From: Patescibacteria group bacterium
GTDB lineage: Bacteria > Patescibacteriota > Minisyncoccia > Phycocordibacterales > PALSA-1337
Direction: 5' to 3'
NCBI GenBank assembly: GCA_038061795.1
Contig: JBBTYL010000003.1
Coordinates: forward strand, 192,041-256,040
Length of the DNA stretch: 64,000 nucleotides
Numbering within the stretch: position 1 is the first letter of the stretch; each line of letters begins with the position of its first letter. Shown here in pieces: positions 14,663 through 60,717 of the stretch. Both the position numbers and the translations under genes were made by a program. The notes under the pieces were generated by a model. It had not been told where the DNA came from and did not search any database. It was given only the letters and a program-made list of their open reading frames with translations.

Positions 14663-14846
14663 ATAGAGCTTTTATATGCCCTATTTTAGCATGGTTTGCG
14701 AGATTTGTTGACAAAGGTTATTTGGTTTTGCTATTATAAGCAATGAAAAGGTATGTATTTCGAATTGTTACCGGACGGTGGCTTGGCTGAATTTATTCAG
14801 TCTAGAATACATATCGGGAAAAGTCTCCTTCGGGAGATTTTTCTTT

Positions 14847-27776: not shown

Positions 27777-28775
27777 TTAAGGCGAAGGTGATGAAGGGAT
27801 CAGCCCCACGATCTTGTTTTTTAATTTTTGAGCATTTCCATGATTCATCATACCTATATACGACTGCAAAGTTGTTGACGAGGGGCTCTTCTTTATAGTC
27901 CTTATCATTCTTTTCTTTGTTGCTGTTCGCAAAACCCTATGATCAGAAAAGTGCACCCAGCCCAGGAAATCCACTCCAGAAGAAAATGTCTTGATAAAGA
28001 CCTTATTAGGGTGAAGATCTAGAGCTAATTTTGATTTTAGAAAAAGATTAATTTTTGGAAGCAAATCGAGAAGATAGTTTTTATCCTCACTCATTATCAC
28101 GAAATCATCAGCATATCGAATGTAATGTTTTGCTTTCAGCACATGCTTTACATATTGATCAAATTCATTCATGTACACGTTTACAAGAAGCTGAGAGGTT
28201 AGGTTTCCTAGGGGCAATCCTTTCCCTTGTCCTGTACTTTGGAAACTTTCAACTATATTCTGAATAAGCCCTACAATAGAGACATCAGAAATATGTCTTT
28301 TAACAATAATCATGAGTATAGAGTGATCAATTGAGGCAAAAAACTTTTTAATATCGCATTTCAATACCCAGCAGGTTCGGTGGTTGTTCCGTGACACTTT
28401 ATAATAAAAATCAGTGAACCGATCAAGCGCCTTGTGGGTTCCTTTGAGATATCTACAGGAGTAGGAATCATAAATGAATTTAGTATCGAAATACGGATAC
28501 AAGACCCTATAAATAGCATGATGTAATAATCTGTCCTGAACCGTAGCCTTATGAATACTTCTGGGCTTGGGGTCACTGATAGAAAACGCTCGATACTCTC
28601 CATGGCAATATGTTTGGTTTTTTAATTCTTCATGAAGCCTAAAAATGTTACGTGAGAGATGTAGTGCGAAATCTGCCACGTCTTTTTTATATTTCTTACC
28701 ACAAACAAACTCCATCCATGCAGCATAGAGATTTTCCAAAGATATGATATGGTTGTAATCCATTATTATTTTCAT
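27777..28775 (-). CDS. DGR reverse transcriptase
   Basis: Has RT motifs including IRYADDFVIM (YADD) and the DGR-specific LPLGNLTSQ (I/LGxxxSQ). The track ORF extends to 28883, but that part is antisense to avd. The likely start is MKIIMDYNH at 28775, preceded by AGGTG. Confidence 0.9.
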   Translation of the reverse strand: MKIIMDYNHIISLENLYAAWMEFVCGKKYKKDVADFALHLSRNIFRLHEELKNQTYCHGEYRAFSISDPKPRSIHKATVQDRLLHHAIYRVLYPYFDTKFIYDSYSCRYLKGTHKALDRFTDFYYKVSRNNHRTCWVLKCDIKKFFASIDHSILMIIVKRHISDVSIVGLIQNIVESFQSTGQGKGLPLGNLTSQLLVNVYMNEFDQYVKHVLKAKHYIRYADDFVIMSEDKNYLLDLLPKINLFLKSKLALDLHPNKVFIKTFSSGVDFLGWVHFSDHRVLRTATKKRMIRTIKKSPSSTTLQSYIGMMNHGNAQKLKNKIVGLIPSSPSP

Positions 28776-28797
28776 TTCATTCAAACACCTATGATGA

Positions 28798-28808
28798 CCC
28801 CCCCCCCC
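28798..28808. repeat. C11/G11 homopolymer tract
   Basis: Eleven consecutive C residues on the + strand, directly after ATGATGA at 28791-28797. Confidence 0.95.
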
Positions 28809-28894
28809 GCACGGTTCCAGGCGTAATTTTAAAGGAAAAAGAAGCATATCAGTTCTGGTTAGTACTTCATAGGAATTTTCCACGGGTTGAAAGG

Positions 28895-29176
28895 TTGGGT
28901 CTCGGTCAAAAGATTGAGACTGTTTTTCTGGATATTTTAGAGTTAAGTTTTTCGTGCGTATATCTTCCCCTTGAGCCCAAAATACTCTTGTTAGGAAAAG
29001 TCATTTCAAGGCTGGATACGCTCAAGTTCTTCACACAGCTGGCATGGGAAGGAAAACTGATACCAAACGAGAAATACGTCGAGCTTTCTAAGAAGCTGGA
29101 GGAGATCGGAAAAATGCTTGGAGGATGGAGAAAAGGATTACAAAATCCGGCAAACAAAACTCTCACCTTGAAGTAG
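28895..29176 (+). CDS. Avd-like four-helix-bundle accessory protein (N-terminally disrupted as sequenced)
   Basis: ...LDTLKFFTQLAWEGKLIPNEKYVELSKKLEEIGKMLGGWRKGL resembles bAvd and the 23S-IVS four-helix-bundle family. The frame is open upstream to 28748 (..RTVPGVILKEKEAYQFWLVLHRNFPRVER..), but the only ATGs (28791/28794) are out of frame by one across the C11 tract. Confidence 0.65.
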   Translation: MGLGQKIETVFLDILELSFSCVYLPLEPKILLLGKVISRLDTLKFFTQLAWEGKLIPNEKYVELSKKLEEIGKMLGGWRKGLQNPANKTLTLK

Positions 29177-29198
29177 TGAGAGAAATAACGAGTTTCGA

Positions 29199-29315
29199 GA
29201 GCCACCACACGATGGCGGTTGTCGGCATTCCAGACGTTGTCGTTCGAGAATCGGTTGACGTTGGCGTTAAGCGTGCCGTCATCGTTGACGTTCACGTTAG
29301 CAACGAAGAACTCGT
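29199..29315 (-). repeat. DGR template repeat (TR)
   Basis: 117 bp. In minus sense it encodes ..FFVANVNVNDDGTLNANVNRFSNDNVWNADNRHRVV.. with nine AAC codons and one AAT codon. Confidence 0.9.
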
Positions 29316-29533: not shown

Positions 29534-29562
29534 ATTATACAAAAATCCCCCTGATTTGCCAA
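29534..29562 (-). promoter_or_regulatory. sigma70-like promoter between VR and TR (candidate TR-RNA/RT promoter)
   Basis: Minus-sense TTGGCA, 17 nt spacer, TATAAT. Confidence 0.4.
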
Positions 29563-29615: not shown

Positions 29616-30305
29616 CTAATTTTTGAGTGCCAGTTGCGGAGCCACCACACGACGGCGGCTGCCGGCACGCCAGACGAGGCCGTTCGAGAATCGGCGGACG
29701 TGGGCGCCAAGCGTGCCGTCATCGCGGACGAACACGCGAGCAACGAAGAACTCGTCGCCAACCTTGAAGAGGAAGAACGTGGCGTAACCTTCCGTGCGAA
29801 GCCACTTCTTGTGCTTCTGCACGAACTGGATGATCTGGGCCTGCGTGAGGCACAGCTCGTCCAAGTTCTCGCTCAGGCCTCCGAAGATCTTGGCAAACGT
29901 GCCATCCTTGACCATCTCGTGGACATGGACGTTTTGCGCAGTCGTCGGATCAGCCTTGACGTTGCAACCCCAGTTCTGGAAATCGCTATCAATGCCCCAT
30001 GTGAAGACTTCCTTAGCCTTCGCAATGGTCCGCTTGCCGTCCGTGGGTTCAAGCTCAAGGGTTTCAGCCCCAGAGATGAGCTTCAGACAGCCAGCGATGT
30101 TTTCGGCGAGTTCAGCGAACAGAGCTTTGACGAATTCCTTGATTCGGGGAGCCACTTGACGTGACCCAACCAAACGTTGGATGTTCTCGCTGTTGAGAAC
30201 GCCATTCGCTTCCAGTTCGTTGACCGCTTCTTCACTCCCTTTGCGTGCCGCGTCTTTGGCAACAGTGACGCACTGTTCTTTCTGACCAGATGTAATCGGT
30301 TTCAT
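29616..30305 (-). CDS. DGR variable (target) protein
   Basis: 229 aa. The VR forms the last ~40 codons (..FFVARVFVRDDGTLGAHVRRFSNGLVWRAGSRRRVV..). No signal peptide or TM segment is visible. GC-rich. Confidence 0.85.
   Translation of the reverse strand: MKPITSGQKEQCVTVAKDAARKGSEEAVNELEANGVLNSENIQRLVGSRQVAPRIKEFVKALFAELAENIAGCLKLISGAETLELEPTDGKRTIAKAKEVFTWGIDSDFQNWGCNVKADPTTAQNVHVHEMVKDGTFAKIFGGLSENLDELCLTQAQIIQFVQKHKKWLRTEGYATFFLFKVGDEFFVARVFVRDDGTLGAHVRRFSNGLVWRAGSRRRVVAPQLALKN
29639..29755 (-). repeat. DGR variable repeat (VR)
   Basis: 117 bp aligned to the TR at offset 440. There are 19 mismatches, all at TR adenines in coding sense. Confidence 0.9.
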
Positions 30306-39380: not shown

Positions 39381-39560
39381 TTTATTGCTTGATAGGTCTT
39401 AATAAATCCGAAACGGGTAACAGAAATCCCGCCGCGGGTAGAGACCGAAATCTCTCATACCAGTTTCCCGATATGGCCTATCAAGCGACCCCACGACGGG
39501 GTTTCTGAACTTGATAGGACTTCTTTCACCATGCCCCGTAAGGGGTTTAGGCTACTTCTC
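39381..39560 (-). promoter_or_regulatory. structured 5' leader with mutually exclusive 9-nt pairings
   Basis: cttgatagg occurs at 39389-97 and 39510-18, and its complement cctatcaag occurs at 39477-85. Three local GC hairpins are also present (CCCGC/GCGGG, ACCCC/GGGGT, CCCC/GGGG). Confidence 0.3.
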
Positions 39561-47580: not shown

Positions 47581-47671
47581 TGGCGGAAACGGAGGGATTC
47601 GAACCCTCGGAGCCTTTAAAGGGCTCACATCTTTAGCAAAGATGCTCGTTAGACCACTCCGACACGTTTCC
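47581..47671 (-). tRNA. tRNA-Ser (anticodon GCU), CCA encoded
   Basis: The hand-folded cloverleaf has acceptor GGAAACG/CGTTTCC, anticodon stem CATCT/AGATG with loop TTGCTAA, a long variable arm GAGCC..GGCTC, and T-arm GAGGG-TTCGAAT-CCCTC, ending in GCCA. Confidence 0.9.
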
Positions 47672-60632: not shown

Positions 60633-60636
60633 AGGG

Positions 60637-60710
60637 TGCGCCCTCTAGGATTCGAACCTAGGACCCTTCCGGTATAAGCGGAATGCTCTAACCAACTGAG
60701 CTAAGGGCGC
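60637..60710 (-). tRNA. tRNA-Ile (anticodon UAU), CCA not encoded
   Basis: The hand-folded cloverleaf has acceptor GCGCCCT/AGGGCGC, D stem GCTC/GAGC, anticodon stem TTCCG/CGGAA with loop CTTATAC, and T-arm CTAGG-TTCGAAT-CCTAG, with discriminator A. Confidence 0.8.
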
Positions 60711-60717
60711 AATCAAT

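What the first reader, a model, noticed from the sequence alone, without database searches (positions are those of the whole stretch)
28748..29176. Avd-like gene lies antisense between TR and RT and is split from its ATG by a C11 homopolymer, a candidate on/off switch
The four-helix Avd-like ORF is on the + strand, opposite to the target, TR and RT. Any TR-RT co-transcript must therefore read through it in antisense, and its start lies about 16 nt from the RT start (28791 vs 28775).

The conserved-looking N-terminal part (RTVPGVILKEKEAYQFWLVLHRNFPRVERLGLGQKIE..) is in frame with the 28895 ORF but has no start codon. The only ATGs (28791 and 28794) precede an 11-C run (28798-28808) and are off by one frame, terminating at a TAA at 28824. 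A C12 or C9 tract would give an uninterrupted 128-aa protein (MMTPPPRTVPG...), which is the size of known Avd proteins.

There are two possibilities. One is a homopolymer sequencing error. The other is slipped-strand phase variation gating DGR activity. The same tract, as G11, sits immediately upstream of the RT ribosome-binding region.
Basis: partly seen in the sequence, partly recalled or inferred. Interest (0 to 1): 0.75.

Follow-up and report, generated by a model that had tools for sequence, protein, structure and literature searches.

The report
Repeat-tract on/off switch on DGR avd
The run of eleven C's that breaks this mutagenic retroelement's helper gene (avd) is not a one-off error: the same hyper-mutable repeat sits at that spot in about 87% of related elements in ultra-small (CPR) bacteria, where it varies in length and flips the gene in or out of frame, which suggests a random on/off switch for a targeted mutation machine.

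Summary
C11 lies at 28798-28808 and is the only C/G run of 7 or more in 64 kb. ATG 28791/28794 are out of frame with a bAvd four-helix-bundle ORF, and C12 or C9 restores a 128/127-aa protein.

The tract is a family trait. Among 140 non-redundant avd loci from CPR/Patescibacteria, 122 carry a simple repeat just before helix 1. Usually it is C8-C14; otherwise (CT)n, (CA)n or (GA)n.

- Repeat-bearing genes are in frame with an ATG in 41/122 loci (33.6%, random phase).
- Repeat-free genes are in frame in 18/18 (p=3e-8).
- All 73 OFF loci have an ATG in another frame reading into the tract, and they are otherwise as intact as ON loci.
- Two populations with identical flanks show C8/C9/C10(/C11) in independent assemblies.
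- A 96%-identical pair differs by (CT)9 versus (CT)11.
- One repeat-free avd has a G11 splitting its RT instead.

Best explanation: slipped-strand phase variation of Avd gates mutagenic retrohoming, and this window is OFF, one C from ON. Reads and expression were not available, so transcriptional slippage is not excluded.

The antisense avd layout is already known (CPR "B3" architecture). No held paper describes the repeat switch.

The parts
28791..28796 (+). Tandem ATG start codons of avd (ATGATG)
   Evidence: The 90%-identical relative L126/P0001 starts with the same ATGATG followed by C7, in frame (MMPPRTVPG...).
28798..28808 (+). C11 homopolymer (G11 on the RT strand). This is the simple sequence repeat that sets the avd reading frame; the present length puts avd OFF, and C12 or C9 would be ON.
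   Evidence: unique in the window, not chance. (homologous tract in 110 of 140 loci, lengths C6-C14, mode 9-10).
28791..28826 (+). Out-of-frame reading from the ATGs through the tract, MMTPPPARFQA*, ending at TAA 28824-28826
28799..29176 (+). Body of avd in the frame without a start codon (PPPRTVPGVILKEKEAYQFW...TLTLK*), a four-helix bundle. Helix 1 begins 7 residues after the first tract codon.
   Evidence: Pfam bAvd. AlphaFold model with pLDDT 91.8 and helices 8-24, 29-53, 58-84 and 90-115. Foldseek matches to bAvd 4dwl and DGR RNP 8ub7, TM 0.74-0.87. 225 homologues, all PF22296.
28895..29176 (+). Mechanical 93-aa ORF from TTG. It would lack helix 1 and the start of helix 2, so it is unlikely to be the functional product.
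   Evidence: TTG corresponds to residue 33 of the model.
27777..28775 (-). DGR reverse transcriptase (332 aa, MKIIMDYNHIISLENL...), divergent from avd, intact
   Evidence: Pfam RVT_1, E 5.9e-24. The start agrees with relatives. RT is divergent from avd in 108/108 loci.
29191..29315 (-). Template repeat (TR)
   Evidence: blastn of TR against VR: 125 nt with 20 substitutions, all at TR adenines (A>G 10, A>C 7, A>T 3), plus one 1-nt indel.
29616..30305 (-). Target gene (229 aa) with the variable repeat (VR) at 29632-29755, at its 3' end
   Evidence: There is no confident Pfam domain.
29160..29182 (-). Terminator-like hairpin plus T-run on the TR/RT strand, immediately 3' of TR and overlapping the avd stop codon
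   Evidence: It is conserved in 116/135 loci versus 5/135 in a control region, with compensatory stem variants.
29534..29562 (-). Sigma-70-like promoter (TTGGCA-17-TATAAT, 11/12) between VR and TR; candidate TR-RNA promoter
   Evidence: This is a consensus match only. Conservation was not tested.

Best explanation
The C11 tract is a hypermutable simple sequence repeat built into the 5' end of avd. It acts as a stochastic, reversible on/off switch (slipped-strand phase variation) for the diversity-generating retroelement (DGR).

**Layout (shown).** avd starts at ATG 28791/28794. It runs through a 2-3 codon leader and the C-tract (encoding Pro-Pro-Pro), then a short conserved linker (R-x-x-P-x), and then helix 1 of the four-helix bundle.

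**Effect of tract length (shown by sequence).** The length decides whether the ATG is in frame. C11 is OFF and terminates after 11 codons. C12 or C9 is ON. Relatives show that the tract changes length between otherwise identical sequences, that all three phases occur, and that OFF genes are otherwise intact.

**Mechanism and consequence (inferred).** Replication slippage changes the length at high frequency. Avd is essential for DGR cDNA synthesis, so cells in the OFF phase keep a fixed variable region while ON-phase cells diversify the target protein. The population therefore hedges between stability and hypermutation. The same tract, read as poly-G, lies in the RT leader and may also affect RT expression; this was not tested.
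For: 1. **Family-wide presence.** 122 of 140 non-redundant avd loci carry a repeat at the homologous position. 103 have C8 or longer, 7 have C6-7, and 12 have dinucleotide repeats. Runs of C/G of 8 or more occur 112 times at this site and 6 times in the other ~950 kb of the loci.

2. **The repeat is conserved, not the peptide.** Related genes (83-87% nt identity) carry C10, (CT)9 or (CT)11 at the same site. Other lineages use (CA)n, (GA)n or poly-G. The tract is all CCC, whereas the conserved Pro two codons before helix 1 uses CCA 31, CCT 20, CCG 11 and CCC 7. CCC makes up 11% of Pro codons in the window.

3. **Random phase only where a repeat exists.** An in-frame ATG is present in 41/122 repeat-bearing loci and in 18/18 repeat-free loci (Fisher p=3e-8). 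All 73 OFF loci have an ATG in another frame that is open into the tract, so each is one step from ON.

4. **OFF is not decay.** The avd body is open for at least 95 codons in 71/73 OFF loci versus 40/41 ON loci. RT is at least 290 aa in 53/62 OFF versus 25/31 ON.

5. **Length polymorphism with identical flanks in independent Illumina assemblies.**
   - Population 1: C8 x3, C9 x6, C10 x8, C11 x1.
   - Population 2, with an intact 343-aa RT: C8 x6, C9 x8, C10 x2.
   - A 96%-identical pair: (CT)9 ON versus (CT)11 OFF.
   - Protein clusters at 90% identity or more show the corresponding discrete N-termini, including a second ATG in another frame.

6. **Relocated switch.** L062 has a repeat-free, in-frame avd, but its RT is split exactly at a G11 run.

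7. **Helix 1 is required.** It is conserved in all homologues and is absent from the TTG product. Avd is described as essential in PMC5758913.

8. **The window is not an error-prone assembly.** It is 91.7% coding, and its A8, T8 and A9 runs lie inside intact ORFs.
Against: - No reads were available. Within-population heterogeneity, switching rate and reversibility are therefore not shown, and the C11 call in this window is unverified.
- An ON fraction of exactly one third is also what is expected if tract length is invisible to selection, for example if transcriptional slippage always supplies some in-frame mRNA.
- Population 1 has a disrupted RT, so its variation could be neutral drift in a dying element.
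- Some lineages have an ATG or GTG right at helix 1 (for example MVLIKSKESY), which could give a leaderless-type product in the OFF phase.
- No expression data exist for any CPR DGR in the material searched.
Confidence: 0.62

Rival explanations
1. Recoding rather than DNA-level switching. RNA polymerase slippage, or ribosomal frameshifting on CCC-C codons, at the long C-run yields a mixture of frames. Every tract length would then give some full-length Avd, and the tract would set a low, constitutive Avd level instead of an on/off state.
For: - Random phase (33.6% in frame) with symmetric offsets (33 versus 34) is what unconstrained tract length predicts.
- Long homopolymers are known slippage sites (PMC5574713).
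- The OFF state is very common (73/122) although the genes stay intact.
Against: - Documented transcriptional insertions prevail in A and T runs, not C/G runs (abstract of PMC5574713).
- Dinucleotide repeats (CT, CA, GA) occupy the same site in 12 loci and are ON or OFF too. RNA polymerase slippage on these is not an established route.
- A programmed ribosomal frameshift would have one conserved direction, but both directions are equally frequent.
- DNA-level length polymorphism is directly seen.
Confidence: 0.17
2. In this window the C11 is simply a homopolymer miscall of a true C12 (or C9) by the sequencer or assembler, and the gene is intact in the organism.
For: - C11 is the longest homopolymer in the window and the most error-prone site.
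- One relative (L061) has an N-gap directly after its C12 tract, which shows that assemblers struggle there.
- The source reads could not be examined, and the window's own proteins are not on record elsewhere.
Against: - Other homopolymers in the window (A8, T8 x2, A9) lie in intact ORFs, and coding density is 91.7%.
- 60% of 122 independent assemblies are out of frame at the same site, while 18/18 repeat-free homologues are in frame.
- Each length state recurs in 10 to more than 24 contigs from different samples and assemblers.
- Even if this one call were wrong, the tract would still be a variable repeat.
Confidence: 0.1
3. The tract serves the RT side. As poly-G in the RT leader or promoter, for example as a Shine-Dalgarno-like element or a spacer, it tunes RT expression, and Avd translation really begins downstream of the tract. 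The frame relation to the upstream ATG would then be irrelevant.
For: - The tract lies 6-53 nt upstream of the RT ATG in 97 loci, often about 9-10 nt, where a G-run could pair with the anti-SD.
- Random phase relative to the ATG.
- A conserved terminator-like hairpin after TR implies that RT needs its own promoter in this region.
Against: - In most loci, including this window, there is no ATG/GTG/TTG between the tract and helix 1.
- The linker after the tract evolves as coding sequence in the avd frame: the conserved Pro shows free third-position variation. It is homologous to sequence downstream of the ATG in repeat-free genes.
- All 73 OFF loci keep an ATG open into the tract in another frame.
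- (CT)n and (CA)n would not serve as a G-rich SD.
- A dual role is not excluded.
Confidence: 0.07
4. The avd gene here is a decaying pseudogene in a DGR that is no longer used.
For: - The frameshift separates the gene from its start.
- One related population has a disrupted RT.
Against: - The 125-codon avd body is uninterrupted, and RT is intact.
- TR and VR differ only at adenines.
- OFF loci are as intact as ON loci across the family.
- The only lesion is always at the repeat.
Confidence: 0.04

Closest known systems
Simple-sequence-repeat contingency loci (translational phase variation by poly-G/C tracts near the 5' end of ORFs, e.g. Neisseria, Haemophilus, Campylobacter, Helicobacter; reviewed in PMC11868660, PMC4235727)
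   Same: - A C/G homopolymer of 7-8 nt or more just after the start codon.
- Length polymorphism between otherwise identical sequences.
- Each length change shifts the frame ON or OFF.
- Alternative ATGs in other frames.
- The repeat type is interchangeable (mono- or dinucleotide).
- Strong enrichment at one gene.
   Different: - The hosts are environmental CPR/Patescibacteria, not host-adapted pathogens.
- The switched gene is not a surface structure or restriction-modification enzyme but the accessory subunit of a targeted hypermutation machine.
- The repeat is conserved at the same codon position across a very deep radiation (Avd identity down to about 40%).
- Switching itself has not been measured.
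Canonical DGR of Bordetella phage BPP-1 (mtd-VR, avd, TR, brt) and the CPR 'B3' cassette architecture (PMC5758913)
   Same: - RT, TR/VR with adenine-specific differences, and an Avd four-helix bundle (fold match to 4dwl and 8ub7).
- The order target-VR, TR, inverted avd, RT is the standard CPR layout.
   Different: - Neither the survey that was read (PMC5758913) nor any paper returned by six full-text searches mentions a repeat tract in avd.
- avd and RT start back-to-back or overlap head-to-head.
- A conserved terminator-like hairpin separates TR from the avd/RT unit.
Phasevarions (phase-variable DNA methyltransferase regulons)
   Same: An SSR in one gene stochastically switches a higher-order system rather than a single structural product.
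   Different: The output here would be the presence or absence of ongoing sequence diversification of a target protein, not a methylation-dependent expression state. This comparison is from general knowledge and was not tested.
Homopolymer frameshifts rescued by transcriptional slippage (endosymbiont poly(A) tracts; dnaX and IS elements)
   Same: A long homopolymer interrupts the frame of an otherwise conserved gene, and tract length is unconstrained modulo 3.
   Different: The known cases are A/T runs (PMC5574713). Here the tracts are C/G runs and dinucleotide repeats, and DNA-level polymorphism is seen.

Membership tests
DGR accessory protein Avd (Pfam PF22296 bAvd) | Sequence match to the family profile above the curated threshold | tested here: met
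All 120 listed homologues carry PF22296.
DGR accessory protein Avd (Pfam PF22296 bAvd) | Four-helix-bundle fold like bAvd | tested here: met
   AF2 model with pLDDT 91.8 and four helices. Foldseek matches to 4dwl (bAvd) and 8ub7 (DGR RNP), TM 0.74-0.87, rmsd 1.5-2.0. A PDB sequence-profile search found no Avd, so the link is at fold and Pfam level.
DGR accessory protein Avd (Pfam PF22296 bAvd) | Encoded next to a DGR RT and a TR/VR pair with adenine-specific differences | tested here: met
   RVT_1 RT lies 15 nt away. TR and VR show 20/20 substitutions at TR adenines.
DGR accessory protein Avd (Pfam PF22296 bAvd) | Pentamer that binds RT and is required for cDNA synthesis | not testable with these tools
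   Needs biochemistry.
SSR-mediated phase-variable (contingency) locus | Simple repeat long enough to slip (7-8 or more for G/C) inside the 5' coding region or promoter | tested here: met
   C11 lies 2 codons after the ATG. Homologous tracts are C6-C14, with dinucleotide repeats of 4-13 units.
SSR-mediated phase-variable (contingency) locus | Repeat length differs between otherwise (near-)identical sequences | tested here: met
   Met in relatives: identical flanks with C8-C11 and C8-C10, and (CT)9 versus (CT)11 at 96% identity. Not testable for the window's own population, which is not in the collections.
SSR-mediated phase-variable (contingency) locus | Length changes switch the ORF between in-frame and out-of-frame, with the gene otherwise intact | tested here: met
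SSR-mediated phase-variable (contingency) locus | Repeat over-represented and conserved at the locus beyond chance or codon usage | tested here: met
   112 versus 6 runs; shuffle expectation 0.05; CCC codon bias.
SSR-mediated phase-variable (contingency) locus | High-frequency, reversible switching within a clonal population, with a change in expression | not testable with these tools
   Needs reads, single-cell or culture data, or reporters.
Programmed ribosomal frameshift site | One conserved shift direction between the upstream and downstream frames | tested here: not met
   In OFF loci the ATG lies in relative frame 1 in 33 cases, in frame 2 in 34, and in both in 6. A third of all loci need no shift.
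CPR 'B3' DGR cassette architecture (Wu et al. 2018) | Core of avd, TR and RT only, with a different order and orientation of avd and TR from the Bordetella type; typical of CPR | tested here: inconclusive
   The window has target-VR, TR, inverted avd, RT, and all 108 relatives have a divergent avd/RT. The paper's text says B3 accounts for 90% of CPR DGRs, but the figure that defines B3 is not held, so the equivalence is inferred.

The most novel reading that the evidence does not exclude
Across the Candidate Phyla Radiation, DGRs carry a convergently evolved contingency switch at the start of avd. It can be poly-C, poly-G, (CT)n, (CA)n or (GA)n, and occasionally it sits in the RT instead. Targeted hypermutation of the variable protein would therefore itself be phase-variable.

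This would be a second-order bet-hedging device: a random switch that controls a mutation engine. It would also be the first phase-variable system described in these organisms.

It could explain why many environmental DGRs look 'inactive' in metagenomes, and why database Avd proteins from CPR are so often annotated as truncated.
Probability: 0.6. Interest if true: 0.9.

Novelty: new variant of a known kind. Interest (0 to 1): 0.85.

Why it matters
DGRs are the most powerful natural protein-diversification systems, and they are most abundant in CPR bacteria. How their activity is controlled in nature is largely unknown.

A built-in, heritable but reversible on/off switch would mean that diversification is confined to a fraction of cells at any time. 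That limits the cost of mutating a working receptor.

The idea can be tested directly with existing metagenomic time series, by correlating tract phase with VR diversity.

It also has practical consequences.

- Gene callers systematically mis-annotate these avd genes as 66-115-aa fragments.
- DGR surveys that require an intact avd, or that treat a frameshift as decay, will misjudge CPR elements.
- Engineering uses of DGRs could borrow the switch.

Tried and rejected
- **Exact-protein look-up of the window RT.** It was not on record, and no 100% Avd hit appeared. The window's own population could therefore not be re-sampled.
- **Structure prediction of the repaired 128-aa sequence.** The in-window frame translation starting inside the tract was used instead.
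- **PDB sequence-profile search.** It gave no Avd hit. The fold search did.
- **Viral relatives L001-L004 (RT 45-48% id).** They share the divergent avd/RT layout but have no repeat. L005-L045 gave no significant Avd tblastn match.
- **Population 1 (L206-L223).** This was the first evidence of polymorphism, but its RT proved to be disrupted. A second population with an intact RT was therefore fetched.
- **Cluster look-up for the dinucleotide lineage.** It gave only singletons. A close pair was found by direct comparison instead.
- **Programmed ribosomal frameshift.** Rejected, because both shift directions are equally common.
- **Polyproline as the selected feature (e.g. EF-P-dependent stalling).** Rejected as the main driver. 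SL, HT and RE repeats replace it, and the Pro codons are exclusively CCC.
- **Paul et al. 2017 (the CPR DGR paper).** It is not held, so prior mention of the tract there cannot be ruled out.
- **RT promoter.** The position of an RT promoter relative to the G-tract was not analysed, because avd coding constraints confound it.
Full report
**1. The observation**

- On the plus strand, ATG ATG (28791-28796) is followed by A and then eleven C's (28798-28808).
- The ATG frame stops at TAA 28824 after 11 codons.
- The neighbouring frame is open from 28760 to TAG 29176 and encodes RTVPGVILKEKEAYQFW.... It has no canonical start before TTG 28895, which gives the 93-aa ORF.
- Adding one C, or removing two, gives a 128- or 127-aa protein.

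The C11 is the only C/G run of 7 or more in the 64-kb window. Even a C9 is expected only 0.05 times in shuffles.

The window does not look like an indel-prone assembly.
- It is 91.7% coding.
- Its A8, T8 and A9 runs lie inside intact ORFs, one of them 1170 aa long.
- CCC is the rarest proline codon (11%).
- None of 24 other PP/PPP motifs uses CCC-CCC.

**2. What the parts are**

*Avd.*
- The repaired protein matches Pfam bAvd above the gathering score.
- An AlphaFold model of the in-window translation is confident (pLDDT 91.8) and has four helices.
- Apart from a related hypothetical four-helix-bundle protein (2gsc), its best structural matches are bAvd and the Avd chains of the Bordetella DGR ribonucleoprotein.
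- Helix 1 begins seven residues after the first tract codon.
- The TTG product would begin inside helix 2.

*The rest of the cassette.*
- The RT (27777-28775, minus strand) is intact and starts 15 nt from the avd ATG on the other strand.
- TR (29191-29315) and VR (29632-29755, at the end of the 229-aa target gene) differ at 20 positions, all TR adenines. The element has therefore been active.

*Layout.*
- The order is target-VR, TR, inverted avd, RT. This is the usual CPR layout.
- RT is divergent from avd in all 108 relatives where it could be scored.
- Wu et al. report that their B3 architecture accounts for 90% of CPR DGRs (PMC5758913).

**3. The tract is a family trait**

A protein search gave 225 homologues, all from CPR/Patescibacteria metagenome genomes. 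Their N-termini show a conserved (T/S)PP(P) motif just before helix 1. Many database entries begin abruptly just after it.

I fetched 160 loci from genome and metagenome collections and anchored each on helix 1.

Of 140 non-redundant loci, including the window:

| Repeat at the homologous position | Loci | In frame with an ATG (ON) | In-frame GTG/TTG only | OFF |
|---|---|---|---|---|
| C8 or longer | 103 | 31 | 8 | 64 |
| C6-7 | 7 | 3 | 0 | 4 |
| Dinucleotide: (CT)n, (CA)n or (GA)n | 12 | 7 | 0 | 5 |
| None | 18 | 18 | 0 | 0 |

- C-tract lengths range from 6 to 14, with the mode at 9-10.
- C/G runs of 8 or more occur 112 times at this site and 6 times in the remaining ~950 kb of the loci.

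**4. Phase**

- Repeat-free genes always have an in-frame ATG (18/18).
- Repeat-bearing genes have one in 41 of 122 loci (33.6%), which equals random phase. Fisher's test against the repeat-free genes gives p=3e-8.
- All 73 OFF loci have an ATG in another frame that reads openly into the tract: 33 in one frame, 34 in the other, 6 in both. Each is therefore one slippage step from ON.
- There is no conserved shift direction, which argues against a programmed ribosomal frameshift.
- OFF genes are not decaying:

| Integrity measure | OFF loci | ON loci |
|---|---|---|
| avd body open for at least 95 codons | 71/73 | 40/41 |
| RT of at least 290 aa | 53/62 | 25/31 |

The short linker between tract and helix 1 evolves as coding sequence in the avd frame. 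Its conserved proline uses CCA 31, CCT 20, CCG 11 and CCC 7. It is homologous to sequence downstream of the ATG in repeat-free genes. Translation must therefore start upstream of the tract.

**5. Direct length polymorphism**

Within protein clusters of at least 90% identity, members fall into discrete N-terminal classes. One cluster contains three forms:
- MGQLNFH...TSNTPPQPVVISKEKEAY (142 aa).
- MNIFILLIPPPQPVVISKEKEAY (128 aa), which is the same DNA leader read from a second ATG in another frame.
- A 114-aa call starting at VISKEKEAY.

Each form is seen on 7 to more than 24 contigs.

| Set | Loci | Tract lengths observed | Notes |
|---|---|---|---|
| Population 1 | 18 | C8 x3, C9 x6, C10 x8, C11 x1 | identical flanks; RT disrupted |
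| Population 2 | 16 | C8 x6, C9 x8 (ON), C10 x2 | identical flanks; where the contig covers it, RT is open for the full 343 aa |
| Pair L180 / L242 | 2 | (CT)9 ON versus (CT)11 OFF | 96% identical |

- Both populations come from different samples and assemblers (MEGAHIT, SPAdes, JGI). Population 2 includes different samples of the same projects.
- Genes 83-87% identical to each other carry C10, (CT)9 or (CT)11 at the same site.
- What is conserved is therefore a slippery repeat, not a peptide.

**6. An instructive exception**

L062 has a repeat-free, in-frame avd. Its RT, however, is split exactly at a G11 run (...GEIAKGGGD* / GGGGLKGLPIGN...). This is the only SSR found in the RT region of any locus scanned (those with at least ~1.2 kb of sequence upstream of avd). 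It suggests that the selected property is a switch on the DGR machinery.

**7. Mechanism**

*Shown:*
- the anatomy of the locus;
- the dependence of reading frame on tract length;
- the conservation and enrichment of the repeat;
- the random phase;
- the intactness of OFF genes;
- the DNA-level length polymorphism.

*Inferred:*
- Slipped-strand mispairing toggles Avd production at high frequency.
- Avd is essential for DGR function (PMC5758913), so this gates mutagenic retrohoming.
- Only a sub-population diversifies its target protein at any time.
- The window is in the OFF phase, one C short of ON.

*Rivals:*
- Transcriptional slippage, or other recoding, could supply some in-frame product at every tract length. 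It is not excluded. It is disfavoured by the dinucleotide repeats and by the A/T preference of known transcriptional slippage (PMC5574713).
- A simple miscall in this one assembly remains possible, but it would not change the family-level conclusion.

**8. The RT side**

- The tract, read as poly-G, lies 6-53 nt upstream of the RT start.
- A terminator-like hairpin with a T-run on the TR/RT strand overlaps the avd stop codon (window 29182-29160). It is found in 116/135 loci versus 5/135 in a control region, with compensatory stem variants.
- This suggests that TR RNA ends just after TR and that RT has its own promoter in the avd 5' region. The tract may then sit in the RT leader. Whether tract length affects RT expression was not tested.

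**9. Novelty**

- Six full-text searches and reading of the main surveys found no link between DGRs or Avd and simple-repeat switching, and no phase variation described in Patescibacteria.
- Paul et al. 2017 could not be read.
- SSR phase variation and DGRs are each well known. Their combination, conserved across a very deep radiation with interchangeable repeat types, appears to be undescribed.

Noticed in passing
window 29160-29182 (minus strand); homologous position in L046-L205: A terminator-like hairpin plus T-run on the TR/RT strand lies directly 3' of TR and overlaps the avd stop codon. It is present in 116/135 loci versus 5/135 in a control region, and the stem covaries (CTCTCAC/GTGAGAG, CTCCCGY/RCGGGAG, CTCCTCGG/CCGGGGAG). 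It also explains the conserved but disordered Avd C-terminal tail (..NKTLT.., ..KTPA..), which is its antisense.
   Followed up: partly
L062:~3430 (JBAZBH010000003.1): This DGR has a repeat-free, in-frame avd. Its RT carries a G11 run (on the RT strand) just before the GLPIGN motif, and the RT is split in two frames at that run. The switch appears to have moved to the RT.
   Followed up: partly
L206-L223 (RT region, about 400-900 nt upstream of avd): In this Portnoybacteria-like population the RT is interrupted between the VNIY and MNEFDQF motifs. The interruption is a ~30-nt hairpin-like insert (translated ...CERDAHASYA*...), present in one or two copies. Some contigs also have a nonsense codon (KCDIK*FF). 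It could be a small mobile or repeat element, or decay.
   Followed up: no
window 29534-29562 (minus strand): A near-consensus sigma-70-like promoter (TTGGCA-17-TATAAT, 11/12) lies between the target gene stop/VR and TR. It is a candidate TR-RNA promoter.
   Followed up: no
L001-L004, L054, L224-L239 and many others: avd and RT start codons are back-to-back (CAT|ATG) or overlap head-to-head by up to 21 nt. For example, avd MNQLNFH... overlaps RT MKIQLIH.... Each gene's promoter must therefore lie inside the other gene.
   Followed up: partly
Protein database entries P0003-P0120, P0121-P0188: CPR Avd proteins are very often annotated as N-terminally truncated fragments (52-115 aa, starting at V/L/M right after the tract or further downstream). 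Gene callers cannot cross the out-of-frame tract.
   Followed up: partly
L061 (CAZVRT010000002.1), avd 5' end: A run of N's directly follows a C12 tract. This is a scaffold gap at the homopolymer, and it shows that assemblers break there.
   Followed up: no
L097 and L098 (same MAG, JAKBUF01): Two paralogous avd loci sit on two contigs of the same genome bin. Both have C10. One is in frame only with a non-ATG start, and the other is out of frame.
   Followed up: no
window 39440-39553 (minus) and 14750-14819 (plus): Rfam gathering-level hits to LOOT RNA (75.5 bits) and DUF3800-IX RNA (44.7 bits). Also tRNA-Ser(gct) at 47581-47671 and tRNA-Ile(tat) at 60634-60711.
   Followed up: no
L149:4207-4228: An inverted pair of C8/G8 runs (ccccccccttataagggggggg) lies far from the avd gene in one locus. 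It is one of only six C/G runs of 8 or more outside the avd start site.
   Followed up: no
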